Positions 2,834 to 63,540 of a stretch of DNA of 64,000 bases are shown here, one piece after another. Numbering within the stretch: the first letter of the stretch is position 1; every line of letters begins with the position of its first letter. A program made the translations under genes and the position numbers. The notes below the pieces were generated by a model. The model searched no databases, was not told where the DNA came from, and saw nothing but the letters and a program-made list of their open reading frames with translations. Source of the stretch: Gallionellaceae bacterium. GTDB lineage: Bacteria; Pseudomonadota; Gammaproteobacteria; Burkholderiales; Gallionellaceae. The stretch spans positions 45,556 to 109,555 of the forward strand of contig JBBIIN010000001.1 in assembly GCA_037446515.1 (NCBI GenBank), given 5' to 3'.

Positions 2834-5073
<2,240 letters not shown>

Positions 5074-38130: not shown

Positions 38131-38165
38131 TCCCTCACCCGAACCCTCTCCCGGGGGGAGAGGGG
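38131..38165. repeat. REP-like palindromic repeat, copy 1
   Basis: TCCCTCACCCGAACCCTCTCCC-GGGG-GGGAGAGGG hairpin family; 31/35 identical to 52521-52555. Confidence 0.8.
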
Positions 38166-38171
38166 CCAATC

Positions 38172-39257
38172 GTGAACAGCAATCGTAAGACCCCAGTCGT
38201 CGTCGGCATGTCCGGCGGCGTCGACTCTTCCGTTACTGCGCTGCTGTTGAAGGAGCAGGGCTATGAGGTCATCGGCCTGTTCATGAAGAACTGGGAAGAC
38301 GATGACGACAACGAATATTGCTCCTCCAGACAAGACCTGATCGATGCTGTGTCAGTCGCCGACACCATCGGCATCCCCATCGAGGCGGTGAACTTCGCCA
38401 AGGAGTACAAGGACCGCGTGTTCAGCTATTTCCTGCGCGAATACGAAGCGGGCCGCACGCCCAACCCGGACATCCTGTGCAACTCGGAAATCAAGTTCAA
38501 AGCCTTCCTCGACCATGCCCTGCGCCTAGGCGCGGAAAAGATCGCCACCGGCCACTATGCCAAGGTGCGCGAACAGGACGGCTTGTTCCAGCTGCTCAAG
38601 GCGGACGACGACAGCAAGGACCAGAGCTACTTCCTGCACCGCCTGAACCAGCAGCAGTTATCGAAGTCGATGTTTCCCTTGGGTGACATCCCGAAGTCGA
38701 AAGTGCGCGAGATCGCACGCCAGCACAGCCTGTCCAACGCCGCGAAGAAAGACAGCACCGGCATCTGCTTCATCGGCGAGCGGCCGTTCCGCGAGTTCCT
38801 TAACCGCTACCTGCCGACCAAACCGGGCGACATGGTCACCCCCGATGGCAAAGTGATGGGACGGCACATGGGCCTGTCGTTCTACACCTACGGCCAGCGT
38901 CAGGGGCTGGGCATAGGCGGCGGCAAGGATAGCAGCGGCGAGCCGTGGTTCGTCGCCGGCAAGGACATGCCCAATAACCGCCTGATCGTAGTGCAGGGGC
39001 ACAACCATCCGCTCTTGCTCAAGCTGCAACTGGACGCGTCGGAGATGCACTGGATCAGCGGCCATGCGCCCGACACCACGCGCGCCTACGCCGCCAAGAC
39101 GCGCTACCGCCAGCAGGATGCCGCCTGCCGCATCACCTTGACCGGAAGCGATTCCGCCCGTTTCACTTTCGCCGAGGCACAATGGGCGGTGACACCGGGC
39201 CAGTCGGCGGTCGCTTATGACGGCGACATTTGCCTCGGCGGCGGCATCATCGAATAA
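38172..39257 (+). CDS. mnmA: tRNA 2-thiouridine synthase
   Basis: [34 protein letters not shown]. Confidence 0.97.
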
Positions 39258-59407: not shown

Positions 59408-60613
59408 TCACTTCGCCCAAATGTCGTGCAGGCTCAGGCTTCCAGCCTCATCCATGCGCTTCTCCAGCGCAACGAACCAGGCTCGGATATCGCTGTCGCC
59501 CCGGGGCAACTGGCTGCTGTCCAGCAGGAACAATGTGGTCAACTCTGATAATTGGATACGTTCTGGCGCGCGCACCATACCCCATCCCAGCCCGGACAAT
59601 TTACCGACGATCTTCGCCCTCACCAGCTTACCCAGGATGCGCTCGACATCTTCGTAGCCGATGCGCAGCTGGCGCGACAGGCCGGGCAAATTCTGCACCT
59701 CCCCCTTTTGCAGCCCCTTGTACATCAGCTTCAACATCGCCAGCGCAAAATAAAGCTGCGCGGCCTGATCGAGTTTCAGCGCATGGGTGCTGCGCCAATG
59801 CGAGATGGACGCGGTAATGATGGCGCCGAACAGCAAGGTCAGCCAGGACAGGTAAATCCACAGCAGGAAGATCGGCACGCTGGCGAAAGCGCCATAGACC
59901 AGCTTGTAGGTGGGAAAATGCGCGATGTAGTAGGCGAACGCCTGGTTCATCGACTCGAACGTGATCGATGCAATCACGCCGCCGATGAGCGCATGGCGCA
60001 TCGGCACATAACGGTTGGGCACCACGCGGAACAGCAGGGTGAACGCCGCCGTGGTGAGCACGACCGGAAGCAGCTTGAGCAGTTCCACCCCAGCCTCGGA
60101 TATCTGCTGGAAGTACCCCAGCGACAGCCCTGCCAGCCACGAGGTCGCCGACAGGCTGCCGCCCACCAGGATGGGGGCCAGCGTGATGACCGCCCAATAC
60201 ACCAGCACGCGCTGCAACATGCTGCGCTGGCGCGACACGCGGAAGATGCGGTGAAAGGCATTATCTATGGTCAATATCATCCACATTGCCGTGAAGGCGA
60301 GGAAGGCGATGCCGACCGCCGTCAGGCGCGACGCGCTCTCGGCGAACTGCTCCATGTAACGCGTGATCATCCTGCCGCCGGTTTCCGGCAGCATGTTGGA
60401 CAGAATGAACTCCTTGAGATGCATGGAAATATCCGCGAAGACCGGAAACGCGGAAAACACGGTCAGTATGATGGTGAGCAGCGGCACCACCGACAGTAAG
60501 GTGGTAAAAGTCAGGCTGGCCGCCATCTCGGTACAGCGGTCTTGGCGCAAGCGCACCCCGACAAAATGCAGGAAGCGCAACGCATCTAGGATACCTAAAT
60601 TGGGAAGTTTCAT
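59408..60613 (-). CDS. YihY/BrkB-family inner-membrane protein with C-terminal wHTH-like extension
   Basis: AASLTFTTLLSVVP, Y..VYGAFA..PIFLLWIYLSW, helix-turn-helix-like tail. Confidence 0.88.
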   Translation of the reverse strand: MKLPNLGILDALRFLHFVGVRLRQDRCTEMAASLTFTTLLSVVPLLTIILTVFSAFPVFADISMHLKEFILSNMLPETGGRMITRYMEQFAESASRLTAVGIAFLAFTAMWMILTIDNAFHRIFRVSRQRSMLQRVLVYWAVITLAPILVGGSLSATSWLAGLSLGYFQQISEAGVELLKLLPVVLTTAAFTLLFRVVPNRYVPMRHALIGGVIASITFESMNQAFAYYIAHFPTYKLVYGAFASVPIFLLWIYLSWLTLLFGAIITASISHWRSTHALKLDQAAQLYFALAMLKLMYKGLQKGEVQNLPGLSRQLRIGYEDVERILGKLVRAKIVGKLSGLGWGMVRAPERIQLSELTTLFLLDSSQLPRGDSDIRAWFVALEKRMDEAGSLSLHDIWAK

Positions 60614-60642
60614 ACGGTTCGATATGCCCATACAATGCTCAC

Positions 60643-61350
60643 ATGATACCCGACAAAATCCCCTCCCAAAGCAATGCCCGCACAGCGCGGCAGTTGCTGC
60701 GCACGCACCGCTACGGCGCGCTCTCTACCCTGTCGAAAAAATATGACGGCCACCCATTCGGCTCCATCACGCCTTACCTGGTTGACCACGACGGCAGCCT
60801 GCTCATCTTCATCAGCGACTTGGCCGAACACACCAAAAATATCAAGCATGACCCGCGCGTCAGCCTGGTCACGCACAACCAGCACGACCCGCGTATCCAG
60901 ACACAGGGGCGCGTCACCGTGATCGGCATGGCCGCGCATGTGGCCGCACGCGAACAGGCTGGCAGGCGTTACCTGCGCCATTTCCCGGAAGCACAAACGT
61001 ATTACGACATGCAGGATTTCCAGTTCTACCGCATCACGCCGCAAGCCATCCGCTATATCGGCGGCTTCGGCGACATCCACTGGATGCAAGCCGAAAACTA
61101 CCGGATACCTCCCTATCCCCTGATCCTCGAGGAGGAACGTTTAATCGAAGAGATCAACCGCGACCACGCTGCGGCACTGGCCGCAAAGTTGGCCTCACCT
61201 GCCAGGGACGCTACACAATTGATCGGGGTGGATTGCGATGGTTTCGATCTGCGCGCAGGGGATCTCACGCTACGCAGCGAATTCCCCGCCATGATGCTGG
61301 ATGCCGCACGGGCACATGGGGCACTGCTGGACATGCTTGCAAAAGGCTAA
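60643..61350 (+). CDS. HugZ/PNPOx-like split-barrel protein with DUF2470-like C-domain
   Basis: PFGS, SDLAEHTKN, RYIGGFG, GVDCDG.DL. Confidence 0.82.
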   Translation: MIPDKIPSQSNARTARQLLRTHRYGALSTLSKKYDGHPFGSITPYLVDHDGSLLIFISDLAEHTKNIKHDPRVSLVTHNQHDPRIQTQGRVTVIGMAAHVAAREQAGRRYLRHFPEAQTYYDMQDFQFYRITPQAIRYIGGFGDIHWMQAENYRIPPYPLILEEERLIEEINRDHAAALAAKLASPARDATQLIGVDCDGFDLRAGDLTLRSEFPAMMLDAARAHGALLDMLAKG

Positions 61351-61625
61351 GGAACCTCTGATTAAGTCCGCCATGAACCGCGTTGCTATCCAAATAGCGA
61401 TGATTGCAAGGCGCGCGACGAAGGTCGTAGCCGTGACTACGATGCCGAGGAGCGCAACCCCGTGAGCGTGCAATTTGGAAACAACCCGCATGGGCACTGG
61501 TTTTGCGGGCGGTATGCGGCGTTGGACTCGTTGCGAAGGGCATCAACCATTCACTGCCTCGTCCGCCTTGCATTCCATCCCGCAAAACCAAGTGCGCGGT
61601 CATGTGGGGCTTAATCAGAGGTTCG
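61351..61625. mobile_element. 275-bp non-autonomous MITE, IS5-like (4-bp CTAA duplication)
   Basis: Perfect 15-bp TIR GAACCTCTGATTAAG (61352-61366 / 61610-61624), imperfect to ~31 bp; CTAA at 61347-61350 and 61626-61629. Confidence 0.85.
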
Positions 61626-61934
61626 CTAACCGCGCACGCCTTTAATCTCCACAGGGGCAGTCTCCTCCCCGTCGGGCTGGGCTTCCTGCGGTGCGGGGCT
61701 GGCTGGAGCCACACTCTCCTTTTGCAGCGGTGGCACCGGCACATCCGCCTTGGCAGGCAACGGTTCCACGGTTTTCACCCGGCGCGTGGCGTGTGTGCGC
61801 CCGGACGCGGCGGTGTGCTCCGATGACACGGCAGCCAAGCTAGACACAGCATCGGTGGGCATGGAAGCGGCAGCCAGCGCATCGCCTGCGCCCCACGCCG
61901 CCGCCAGCCACATCAGCCACATTCCCCGTCCCAT
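61626..61934 (-). CDS. Hypothetical exported low-complexity protein downstream of leuA
   Basis: SD GGAGG before ATG 61934, signal-peptide-like N-terminus, Pro/Ala/Glu-rich, ends VEIKGVRG. Confidence 0.55.
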   Translation of the reverse strand: MGRGMWLMWLAAAWGAGDALAAASMPTDAVSSLAAVSSEHTAASGRTHATRRVKTVEPLPAKADVPVPPLQKESVAPASPAPQEAQPDGEETAPVEIKGVRG

Positions 61935-61954
61935 GCCCCCTCCTGGCATCCGCA

Positions 61955-63490
61955 TCAAAGCTGCGGATGAGCTCGCTCCGCGCCCGCATGCAGCTTGTTC
62001 AGCGCGTTCAGATAGGCTTTGGCTGAAGCCACCACGATGTCGGTATCCGCGCCCTGCCCGTTGACCACGCGCCCGCCCCTGGACAGACGCACCGTCACCT
62101 CGCCCTGCGCATCGGTGCCGCTGGTGATGTTGTTCACCGAGTACAGCAACAGTTCGGTATTACTTTGCGTGATCTGCTCGATAGCCTTGAAGGTCGCATC
62201 CACCGGCCCGCCGCCTTGTGCATCAGACTGGCGTTCCTTGCCGCCGACATTCAATATCACGCGCGCCACCGGCAACGCCCCGGTCTCGGAATGCGCGCCC
62301 ATCGCCACTAGGCGGTAATGCTCGCTCACTTGCATCGTCTCTTCGTTGCTGACCAGCGCCTGCAAGTCCTCGTCGAAGATCTCGTGCTTCTTGTCGGCCA
62401 GATCCTTGAAACGCGCGAAGGCCGCGTTCACTGCCTCTTCGCCTTCCAGCACGATGCCCAATTCCTGCAAACGCGCGCGGAACGCCGCGCGGCCCGAGTG
62501 CTTGCCCATCACCATCTTGTTGGCACCCCAACCCACGTCCTCGGCACGCATGATCTCGTAGGTCTCGCGGTGCTTGAGCACGCCGTCCTGATGGATACCG
62601 GACTCGTGCGCGAAGGCGTTGGCGCCAACGATGGCCTTGTTCGGCTGAATCGGGTAGCCGGTGATGCTGGATACCAGCTTGGAGGTCGGCACGATCTGCG
62701 TCGCATCGATGTGGCAATCGCACTTGAAGATGTCGCGGCGCGTGCGCACCGCCATCACCACCTCTTCCAGCGAAGCGTTGCCCGCGCGTTCTCCCAAGCC
62801 ATTGATGGTGCATTCCACTTGGCGCGCGCCGTTCATCACCGCAGCCAGCGAATTGGCCGAGGCCATGCCTAGGTCGTTGTGGCAATGCGTGGACCAGATC
62901 ACCTTGTCCGAACCCGGCACACGCGCGATCAGCTCCCTGAAGCGCTCGCCCCACAACACCGGGATGCTGTAGCCCACCGTGTCCGGCACGTTCAGCGTGG
63001 TGGCGCCCGCCTGGATGACCTCGGTGAAGATGCGCACCAGGAAATCCATCTCGGAGCGCACCGCATCCTCGGCGGAGAATTCCACATCGTCGGTATATTC
63101 GCGCGCCCACTTCACCGCCTGGACCGCGCGCTCCACCACCTGGTCCTCGGTCATGCGCAACTTGTGCTGCATGTGGATGGGCGAGGTGGCGATGAAAGTA
63201 TGGATGCGACCGCGCTTGGCCGGCTTGATCGCCTCTCCCGCCACGCGCACATCGCGTTCGTTGGCGCGCGCCAGTGAGCACACGATCGAATGCTCGATCA
63301 CCTTGGCGATGCTGTGGATCGCGTCGGCATCGCCGGGGCTGGCCGCCGCAAAGCCCGCCTCGATCACATCCACGCCCAGCTTCTCCAGCTGGCGCGCGAT
63401 GCGCAACTTCTCTTCCTTGGTCATGGACGCGCCGGGACTCTGCTCGCCGTCGCGCAAAGTGGTGTCGAATATGATCAATTTGTCAGTCAT
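61955..63490 (-). CDS. leuA: 2-isopropylmalate synthase
   Basis: [32 protein letters not shown]-terminal regulatory domain. Confidence 0.97.
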
Positions 63491-63514
63491 GTCGGTACTC
63501 CGGTGCAATTCCTC

Positions 63515-63540
63515 AAAAGCGGCCATCACGCAGATGCCGC
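63515..63540 (-). terminator. Putative leuA attenuator hairpin
   Basis: Minus strand GCGGCATC-TGCGT-GATGGCCGC-TTTT, 25 nt upstream of the leuA ATG. Confidence 0.6.

What the first reader, a model, noticed from the sequence alone, without database searches (positions are those of the whole stretch)
61347..61629. 275-bp MITE inserted exactly into the shared stop codons of two convergent genes
It has a perfect 15-bp TIR (imperfect to ~31 bp) and a CTAA direct repeat on both sides. The left CTAA holds the TAA of the HugZ-like gene; the right CTAA holds, on the minus strand, the TAG of the gene ending the leuA unit. Removing the element and one CTAA restores two genes overlapping at their stops, so the insertion is coding-neutral. 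The interior has no transposase but is highly structured: hairpins at 61385-61398 and 61425-61442, and a 12+4-bp inverted repeat at 61494-61509/61579-61595. YTAR 4-bp duplications are typical of IS5-subgroup elements. It may now act as a 3' UTR, terminator or sRNA for both transcripts (inference).
Basis: partly seen in the sequence, partly recalled or inferred. Interest (0 to 1): 0.65.

Follow-up and report, generated by a model that had tools for sequence, protein, structure and literature searches.

The report
IS5-type MITE in two stop codons
A 275-bp non-coding "hitch-hiker" transposon of the IS5 type landed in the four bases CTAA where two convergent genes shared their stop codons and rebuilt both stops; the insertion is ordinary, but its folded core is conserved in relatives that carry quite different ends.

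Summary
The element is 61351-61625 (275 bp) with a perfect 15-bp terminal inverted repeat (TIR; 16-bp family consensus GGAACCTCTGATTAAG) and CTAA on both sides. The left CTAA holds the TAA of the HugZ-like gene. The right CTAA holds the minus-strand TAG of a small conserved gene after leuA.

- **Empty site:** three relatives read ...GCTAACCGCGCACGCC..., with the two genes overlapping by 4 nt.
- **Copies:** the same ends occur in at least 119 stretches of Gallionellaceae, Nitrotoga, Methylophilaceae and other betaproteobacterial genomes. Of 44 copies with identical 4-nt flanks, 37 are YTAR.
- **Partner:** 1.2-kb IS5-family insertion sequences (315-aa transposase) carry ends identical at 15 of 16 bases.

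It is therefore an IS5-group MITE, and the coding-neutral insertion follows from the YTAR target plus selection. Any role as terminator or sRNA is untested: there was no Rfam match, no terminator motif and no RNA data.

The family's roughly 230-nt core is unusual. It occurs with at least eight different end types and shows strong compensatory base-pair changes, with no strand or orientation bias. Its function is unknown.

The parts
60643..61350 (+). HugZ-like gene (pyridoxamine-5'-phosphate-oxidase fold plus DUF2470), 235 aa. Its stop TAA is at 61348-61350.
   Evidence: ORF list. Pfam PF13883, PF01243 and PF10615. Homologues are named HugZ family or heme iron utilization protein.
61347..61350 (.). 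Left copy of the 4-bp target-site duplication, CTAA.
   Evidence: Sequence. Relatives have a single CTAA at this position.
61351..61625 (.). The MITE: 275 bp, non-coding, IS5-group type.
   Evidence: The internal ORFs show no codon periodicity.
61351..61366 (+). Left terminal inverted repeat, GGAACCTCTGATTAAG.
   Evidence: It is identical to the family consensus.
61378..61485 (.). Core hairpin arm 1. It includes the conserved tip hairpin at 61425-61442.
   Evidence: Fold. Compensatory changes occur in helices 2-4 of A1 and in helices 2-6 of A4.
61494..61600 (.). Core hairpin arm 2. It holds the near-invariant motifs TTTGCGGGCGGTaTGC (61502-61517) and CCCGCAAA (61579-61586).
   Evidence: (I3).
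61610..61625 (-). Right terminal inverted repeat. 15 of 16 bases match the left one; the outermost base is changed.
61626..61629 (.). Right copy of the target-site duplication, CTAA. On the minus strand it supplies the TAG at 61626-61628.
61626..61958 (-). Small conserved gene (110 aa, no Pfam match) that overlaps the end of leuA by 4 nt. Its C-terminus KGVRG* is invariant.
61955..63529 (-). leuA (2-isopropylmalate synthase).
   Evidence: Pfam PF00682, PF22617 and PF08502.

Best explanation

**Mobilisation (inferred).** An IS5-group DDE transposase supplied in trans binds the 16-bp ends GGAACCTCTGATTAAG. I infer this from IS copies elsewhere that carry near-identical ends.

**Integration.** The transposase integrates the element at a YTAR tetranucleotide by a 4-nt staggered cut. 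Repair duplicates the 4 nt. The staggered cut follows from established IS5 biology. The duplication is shown here by CTAA on both sides, against a single CTAA in relatives.

**Why both genes stay intact.** The target was the CTAA in which the TAA of the HugZ-like gene and the minus-strand TAG of the small gene after leuA overlapped. Every YTAR site holds a stop triplet on both strands, and the site is duplicated. Each gene therefore keeps its own stop and an unchanged protein. The only effect is 279 extra bases between the two gene ends.

**Why such copies persist (inferred).** Such a neutral insertion escapes purifying selection. This fits the family's enrichment at gene ends.

**The core.** The interior folds into two long hairpin arms closed by the ends. 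That fold is conserved by compensatory changes across the family. It most likely serves the element's own propagation or tolerance, not a specific task at this locus (inferred).
For: **Ends and duplication**
- The perfect 15-bp ends occur only twice in the window, against 0.01 expected.
- CTAA flanks both sides.

**Empty site**
- Three relatives (HugZ homologue 71-74% identical) have a single CTAA followed by the same CCGCGCACGCC.
- In the relative where the small gene is called (L004), the two genes overlap by 4 nt.

**Family**
- At least 119 genomic stretches carry the same ends. They yield 82 complete elements, most commonly 273-275 bp.
- Among the aligned full-length copies identity to this one is about 69-88%.
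- Of 82 elements, 44 have identical 4-nt flanks, and 37 of those are YTAR.
- In the source metagenome, summed contig depth rises from about 25 in the flank to about 330 over the ends. Other contigs at host-like depth (22-25) carry diverged copies with other flanks.

**Autonomous partners**
- 1.17-1.24-kb elements encode a 315-aa transposase (NCBIfam NF033581 IS5 family, 331 bits against a cut-off of 140).
- Their ends are GGAATCTCTGATTAAG, GGAAGCTCTGATTAAG or GGAACCTCTGATCAAG, with TTAA or CTAA-type flanks.
- IS1384 in pCAR1 has GGAAACTCTGAAAAAG with CTAA flanks.
- IS5 targets Py-T-A-Pu (PMC5493358).

**Gene ends**
- In 17 of 164 element flanks the duplicated TAR is the stop of an open frame of at least 120 codons, against 4.0% of control YTAR sites (p = 3e-4).

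**Not coding, not a known RNA**
- The internal ORFs show no codon periodicity.
- No Rfam family matches.
Against: - No second copy and no transposase gene could be shown in the host genome itself.
- The copies seen at host-like depth in the metagenome could belong to other organisms of similar abundance.
- The empty sites come from relatives of another species or genus (71-74% protein identity), not from a strain of the same species.
- The IS partners found differ from the MITE ends at one base per end and come from other, lower-G+C organisms.
- In the source run, IS5-like sequence related to the one IS tested appears only at depth 5, against 25 for the host.
- Transposition was not observed.
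Confidence: 0.9

Rival explanations
1. The element is kept here because it now does something for the host at the RNA level. It could be a two-way barrier, 3'-end stabiliser or terminator between the two convergent transcripts, or the source of a small RNA. The insertion would then be adaptive, not merely tolerated.
For: - Both strands fold very stably (z = -6.6 and -8.3).
- The fold is conserved with many compensatory changes.
- Before insertion the two genes overlapped, with no room for any 3' signal.
- Family copies lie between convergent genes more often than between divergent ones (11 against 5).
- MITE transcripts are known to form stable stem-loops and have been proposed as terminators or sRNA sources (PMC10969869).
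Against: - There is no hairpin followed by a T-run on either strand, and no promoter-like site.
- No Rfam match.
- The family shows no orientation bias relative to neighbouring genes (14 against 9, p = 0.40).
- The pairs show no G-U over A-C excess that would mark a transcribed strand (25 against 23, and 46 against 38).
- The convergent excess is not significant (p = 0.21).
- No RNA data exist for this organism.
Confidence: 0.15
2. The conserved two-arm fold acts at the DNA level for the element's own benefit. Extruded hairpins or a cruciform would bring the two ends of a short, stiff 275-bp DNA together, or would recruit a host DNA-bending protein. Any IS5-family transposase whose ends are attached could then move it efficiently. 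This concerns the core's function and is compatible with the main explanation.
For: - The same core occurs with at least eight different end sequences at nearly constant length, 266-279 bp.
- Pairing is conserved symmetrically on both strands, with no G-U bias and no orientation bias.
- The stems change sequence completely between subfamilies yet still pair: 638 cells changed on both sides, against 228 +/- 12 in shuffles.
Against: - There is no experimental precedent that I can cite for IS5-family MITEs.
- Cruciform extrusion of imperfect 100-nt arms is energetically costly.
- Near-invariant unpaired motifs suggest sequence-specific recognition, not only geometry.
- Strand-symmetric conservation is also expected if the RNA works in both orientations.
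Confidence: 0.2
3. The 275 bp is an old intergenic spacer, and the relatives lost it by deletion between the two CTAA repeats. On this reading there was no insertion.
For: A 4-bp direct repeat could in principle mediate a deletion. The empty sites come from fairly distant relatives.
Against: - The same element, with the same ends and YTAR flanks, sits at more than 80 unrelated loci in many genera.
- It shares its ends with transposase-encoding IS copies.
- Three separate relatives would each need the same precise deletion.
Confidence: 0.02

Closest known systems
IS5-family insertion sequences of the IS5 group (IS5, IS1384, ISPst7)
   Same: - 16-bp ends of the pattern GGAAnnTCTGAnnnAG. IS1384 in pCAR1 has GGAAACTCTGAAAAAG, identical at 13 of 16 bases.
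- A 4-bp target duplication at Py-T-A-Pu.
- The partner IS with near-identical ends encodes an NF033581 IS5-family DDE transposase about 50% identical to those of IS1384 and ISPst7.
   Different: - This element is 275 bp and has no transposase gene.
- Beyond roughly the first 24 bases its interior is unrelated to the IS interior.
- It depends on a transposase supplied in trans, which was not found in the host.
Bacterial MITEs derived from insertion sequences (for example the P. syringae MITEs, Coxiella QMITE1/2, Neisseria Correia elements, ERIC)
   Same: Small size, terminal inverted repeats, target-site duplication, many copies, intergenic or gene-end location, and very stable predicted stem-loop folds of the whole element (PMC10969869).
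   Different: - In textbook MITEs the ends are the conserved part and the core drifts. Here the core is the conserved part. It carries strong compensatory base-pair changes and appears with many unrelated end sequences.
- From my own knowledge, Correia elements duplicate TA and have 26-bp ends, and ERIC has different ends. No sequence comparison with them was made.
Rho-independent terminators and REP-type 3' stabilisers between convergent genes
   Same: A strongly folded sequence lies directly after two convergent stop codons.
   Different: There is no T-run after any stem. The length is 275 nt, not 30-40. Transposon ends and a target duplication are present. No transcript data are available.

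Membership tests
MITE (non-autonomous IS derivative) | Terminal inverted repeats at both ends | tested here: met
   A perfect 15-bp repeat, 16 bp in the family consensus.
MITE (non-autonomous IS derivative) | Target-site duplication, and an empty site elsewhere | tested here: met
   CTAA on both sides. L002, L003 and L004 have a single CTAA with the same right flank.
MITE (non-autonomous IS derivative) | Small and without a transposase gene or other coding capacity | tested here: met
   The element is 275 bp. tblastn with the partner transposase finds nothing in the window. Variation by codon position in the internal ORF is 160/139/166, p = 0.27.
MITE (non-autonomous IS derivative) | Multiple copies in the same genome | tested here: inconclusive
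   The 64-kb window holds one copy. In the source metagenome, contigs break in the element, depth rises about 13-fold over the ends, and at least three other contigs at host-like depth carry diverged copies. Multiple copies within other single genomes are shown, for example CAVVAD01 and CAZRAL01.
MITE (non-autonomous IS derivative) | An autonomous IS with matching ends | tested here: met
   L032, L056, L126, L127 and L128 carry ends identical at 15 of 16 bases around a 315-aa IS5-family transposase. Such an IS was not shown in the host genome.
IS5 family, IS5 group | 4-bp duplication of a YTAR target | tested here: met
   This copy duplicates CTAA. Across the family, 37 of 44 identical flank pairs are TTAA, CTAA/TTAG or CTAG. 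The IS5 target table is in PMC5493358.
IS5 family, IS5 group | End sequence of the GGAA...CTGA...AAG type | tested here: met
   13 of 16 bases match the left end of IS1384, and 12 of 16 match the left end of a Nitrobacter IS5-family IS.
IS5 family, IS5 group | DDE transposase of the IS5 family encoded in the element | tested here: not met
   The element has no such gene, as expected for a MITE. It is a derivative or dependant of the family, not an IS.
Any described structured RNA (Rfam 15) | Match to a covariance model | tested here: not met
   No match with E <= 1 in window 60500-62500. No match on the element in five other family members.
Intrinsic (Rho-independent) terminator | G+C-rich hairpin followed by a T-run | tested here: not met
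   No site on either strand in 61000-62000.

The most novel reading that the evidence does not exclude
The roughly 230-nt two-arm core is a functional structured nucleic-acid module in its own right, not passive filler. It is absent from Rfam. It is kept by selection on base pairing and on a few invariant unpaired motifs. It has repeatedly acquired the ends of different IS5-family transposases, so it can ride on whichever transposase a genome holds. Its task is unknown. It could promote synapsis or recruit a host factor at the DNA level, or act as a two-way RNA element at gene ends.
Probability: 0.3. Interest if true: 0.75.

Novelty: new variant of a known kind. Interest (0 to 1): 0.5.

Why it matters
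**At this locus.** The finding is a clean natural example of how target choice and selection together yield harmless transposon insertions. A YTAR target is a stop codon on both strands and is duplicated on insertion. A MITE can therefore split two overlapping convergent stop codons without changing either protein. For annotation, the 279-nt gap and its spurious ORFs should not be called genes.

**At family level.** A non-coding core is conserved more strongly than the transposon ends. It has abundant compensatory changes and carries many interchangeable end types. This is not what the standard view of MITEs as decayed IS copies predicts. If the core proves functional, it would be a new widespread structured element of Betaproteobacteria, including iron-oxidising Gallionellaceae, Nitrotoga and methylotrophs. 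It would also make testable how a MITE can switch transposase partners.

Tried and rejected
- **Plasmid BLAST of the element.** It gave only a 43-nt core match in a Comamonas plasmid. That match later proved to be the same core with other ends.
- **Rfam.** Nothing was found. One sub-threshold miRNA hit lay outside the element and was dismissed as chance.
- **Promoter and terminator scan.** Nothing was found.
- **RNA runs.** None is listed.
- **Small protein hypothesis.** Many copies have open frames of 79-84 codons from the ATG at element position 23. I rejected coding because there is no codon-position periodicity and 1-nt indels separate the subfamilies.
- **Strand test by G-U against A-C.** No asymmetry.
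- **Orientation test against neighbouring genes.** No bias.
- **Search for the transposase in the window and in 119 family loci.** It was found only in OZ255726.1.
- **Laying the IS from L126 on the runs.** The IS from L032 was laid instead.
- **No empty allele.** No joint spanning 61350 to 61626 appeared in the three runs.

Full report
**1. The observation**

Window 61340-61640 reads ...CAAAAGG CTAA GGAACCTCTGATTAAGTCCGCCATGA ... TCATGTGGGGCTTAATCAGAGGTTCG CTAA CCGCGCACGCC....

- The 15-mer GAACCTCTGATTAAG occurs exactly twice in the 64-kb window, at 61352-61366 (+) and 61610-61624 (-). Shuffles expect 0.01 matches.
- The inverted repeat extends imperfectly to 32 nt.
- With the family's 16-bp ends, the element is 61351-61625, or 275 bp. 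The CTAA copies lie at 61347-61350 and 61626-61629. The outermost base of the right end is G, where the family has C.
- The 235-aa ORF 60643-61350 (+) has a PNPOx-like fold plus DUF2470, and its homologues are named HugZ family. It ends with TAA inside the left CTAA.
- The 110-aa ORF 61626-61958 (-) overlaps the end of leuA (61955-63529) by 4 nt. It ends with TAG inside the right CTAA.
- The small ORF is a real, weakly conserved gene. It is 33% identical to the corresponding ORFs of two relatives and has an invariant C-terminus KGVRG*.

**2. Insertion, not an old spacer**

The HugZ-like protein's nearest relatives are 71-74% identical. They come from MAGs related to Gallionella, Sideroxydans and other Nitrosomonadales. 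I fetched three such loci, and all keep the same gene order: SLT, redoxin, UPF0114, BrkB, HugZ, then the small gene and leuA convergent.

At the junction they read GCAGGCTAACCGCGCACGCCC (L004) and GCAAGCTAACCGCGCACGCCC (L003, L002). That is a single CTAA followed by the same right flank as in the window. In L004 the called genes occupy 3001-3711 (+) and 3708-4055 (-), an overlap of exactly CTAA. No empty allele of the same species was seen in the three runs that hold the organism.

**3. A multi-copy family with YTAR duplications**

A scan of one genome per prokaryotic species used the end plus its subterminal bases (GAACCTCTGATTAAGNCCNNNATG). The records are labelled Gallionella, Sideroxydans, Gallionellaceae, Candidatus Nitrotoga, Methylophilaceae, Methylotenera, Thiobacillus, Sulfuricella, Hydrogenophilaceae, Nitrosomonadales and Burkholderiales, with a few others.

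- Pairing the ends gives 82 complete elements. The most common length is 273-275 bp (34 copies), with longer and shorter variants.
- Among the aligned full-length copies, identity to the window copy is about 69-88%.
- Of the 82, 44 have identical 4-nt flanks. Of these, 37 are YTAR: TTAA 17, CTAA/TTAG 18, CTAG 2. Most unequal flank pairs are one change away from YTAR.

The window has no second copy. Indirect evidence comes from the source subsurface metagenome.

- A Logan contig carrying the identical HugZ gene ends 30 nt inside the element.
- Summed contig depth rises from about 25 in the flank to about 330 over the ends.
- At least three other contigs at host-like depth (22-25) carry diverged copies. 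They differ at 7-17 of about 100-130 nt and have other flanks. The loose ends read ...CTAG and TTAG....
- These copies may or may not belong to the same genome.

**4. The autonomous partner**

In the complete MAG chromosome OZ255726.1, elements of 1,206-1,236 bp are bounded by GGAATCTCTGATTAAG and GGAAGCTCTGATTAAG. These match the MITE end at 15 of 16 bases. They encode a 315-aa protein with DDE_Tnp_1 and DUF772 domains. It scores 331 bits on NCBIfam NF033581 (IS5 family transposase), against a cut-off of 140. There the IS and MITE copies lie head to tail and share YTAR sites.

The protein has thousands of relatives at 70-76% identity. Fetched copies again have matching ends.

- L126 is 1,172 bp, with GGAATCTCTGATTAAGTCC on the left, GGAACCTCTGATCAAG on the right and TTAA flanks.
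- L127 and L128 have GAACCTCTGATTAAG preceded by A in place of G.
- One variant occurs on at least 60 contigs.

Similarity between the MITE and the left end of the IS runs to about base 24 and then stops.

The nearest named relatives are IS1384 and ISPst7, at about 50% protein identity. IS1384 in pCAR1 has GGAAACTCTGAAAAAG with CTAA on both sides. IS5 itself targets Py-T-A-Pu (PMC5493358).

In the source study's runs, 1,183-nt IS5-like contigs exist in X2 and X3, and one has an end matching 20 of 21 bases. In the run that holds the host, only a 742-nt contig at depth 5 was seen, against 25 for the host. This was a weak test, made by DNA similarity to a single IS. No autonomous copy can be assigned to the host.

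**5. Why the insertion is coding-neutral**

Every YTAR site contains a stop triplet on both strands, and the site is duplicated on insertion. When the target is the overlap of two convergent stops, each gene keeps a stop and an unchanged protein.

Across the family, the duplicated TAR is the stop of an open frame of at least 120 codons at 17 of 164 element flanks. The rate for other YTAR sites in the same loci is 4.0% (p = 3e-4). Ten more long frames end at the TGA or TAA inside the end sequence itself. Three elements, like this one, have gene ends on both sides. Most copies are simply intergenic. The pattern fits target preference filtered by selection. No special mechanism is needed.

**6. 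The core**

The window copy folds far better than shuffles on both strands (z = -6.6 and -8.3). The fold is a stem formed by the two ends, closing two long hairpin arms.

*Copies chosen by their ends (39 sequences, alignment A1).*
- 74 consensus pairs are 96% paired.
- 35 pairs show compensatory changes, against 18.7 +/- 1.6 in shuffles (0 of 500 reach it) and 7-18 when the partners are slid.

*The same core with other ends.*
- A 43-nt BLAST match in a Comamonas plasmid turned out to be the same core bounded by a different 18-bp end, GAACGTGTTTACGATCTC.
- Of these, 37 complete and 15 partial hits carry IS5-group-like ends. Another 40 complete and 11 partial hits carry the GARCSTGTT..CGATCTC type.
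- Eleven more carry at least six further end sequences.
- All are 266-279 bp long.

*Copies across end types (58 sequences, alignment A4).*
- Whole stems are replaced by different sequences that still pair.
- 43 of 63 pairs show compensatory changes.
- 638 cells are changed on both sides, against 228 +/- 12 in shuffles (0 of 500) and 94-174 when slid.
- The two search motifs are invariant in A4 by construction. They are also near-invariant in A1, which was chosen by the ends alone.

*What the core is not.*
- It matches no Rfam family.
- It is not coding.
- Pairs predicted on both strands show no excess of G-U over A-C: 25 against 23 in A1 and 46 against 38 in A4.
- It has no orientation bias relative to neighbouring genes: 14 against 9 in tandem contexts.

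The fold is under selection, but nothing marks one transcribed strand. This favours one of two roles. The fold may act at the DNA level for the element itself, or it may work in either orientation as RNA. Neither was tested.

**7. Function at this locus**

The region has no terminator-like or promoter-like site, and no RNA run holds the stretch. The most economical reading is a tolerated insertion.

**8. Comparison with what is known, and novelty**

All the defining features of an IS-derived MITE that could be tested are met: inverted ends, a target duplication with an empty site, no coding capacity, many copies, and a partner IS. The IS5-group signatures are also met: the GGAA..CTGA..AAG type of end and the 4-bp YTAR duplication. 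The one gap is proof of several copies within the host genome.

The insertion is therefore an ordinary new member of a known kind. What departs from the usual picture is the family's core. It is better conserved than the ends, it is strongly supported by covariation, and it is combined with many end types. I re-derived it here from independent searches. I found no paper describing this family in the library searched, but that search was limited.

Noticed in passing
L135 (Comamonas odontotermitis plasmid NZ_CP083452.1, 53653-54495), locus positions about 270-560: An intergenic element between an organic hydroperoxide resistance gene and an SMR transporter gene has the same core as the window's MITE. 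It is bounded by a different perfect 18-bp inverted repeat, GAACGTGTTTACGATCTC, with TAA-like flanks.
   Followed up: yes
L032 5033-7773, L056 439-2272 and L063 4399-7074 (OZ255726.1): MITE and full-length IS copies lie head to tail, separated only by one shared YTAR tetranucleotide. It looks as if each insertion's duplicated target became the target of the next.
   Followed up: partly
window 38132-38173, and L111 3064-3330 (element positions 106-150): One family member in another genome carries a 45-nt stretch 78% identical to the window's small palindromic repeat between nudJ and mnmA. This suggests a second, much smaller mobile palindrome nested inside some MITE copies.
   Followed up: no
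window 61626-61958 (-): The 110-aa ORF after leuA has no Pfam match and a hydrophobic N-terminal stretch. It is only about 33% identical to its counterparts, yet all end in KGVRG. It may be a small exported protein co-translated with leuA.
   Followed up: partly
L002 3580-3720: In one relative the HugZ homologue is called 212 aa long and stops early at 3637-3639. DNA for the usual C-terminus continues to the CTAA at 3717-3720. This is probably a frameshift or an assembly error.
   Followed up: no
window 61085 to 61952, run X2: One contig from a related organism (24 differences in 149 nt) joins the HugZ region to the start of the leuA region, skipping 866 nt. The relative may lack the HugZ C-terminus and the small gene, or be arranged differently.
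   Followed up: no
A1 columns 53/133; A4 columns 54/137 and 181/250: Two positions inside conserved stems are kept as non-Watson-Crick pairs: T-G in 41 of 58 copies and A-C in 56 of 58. One favours each strand. These conserved mismatches may be recognition points.
   Followed up: no
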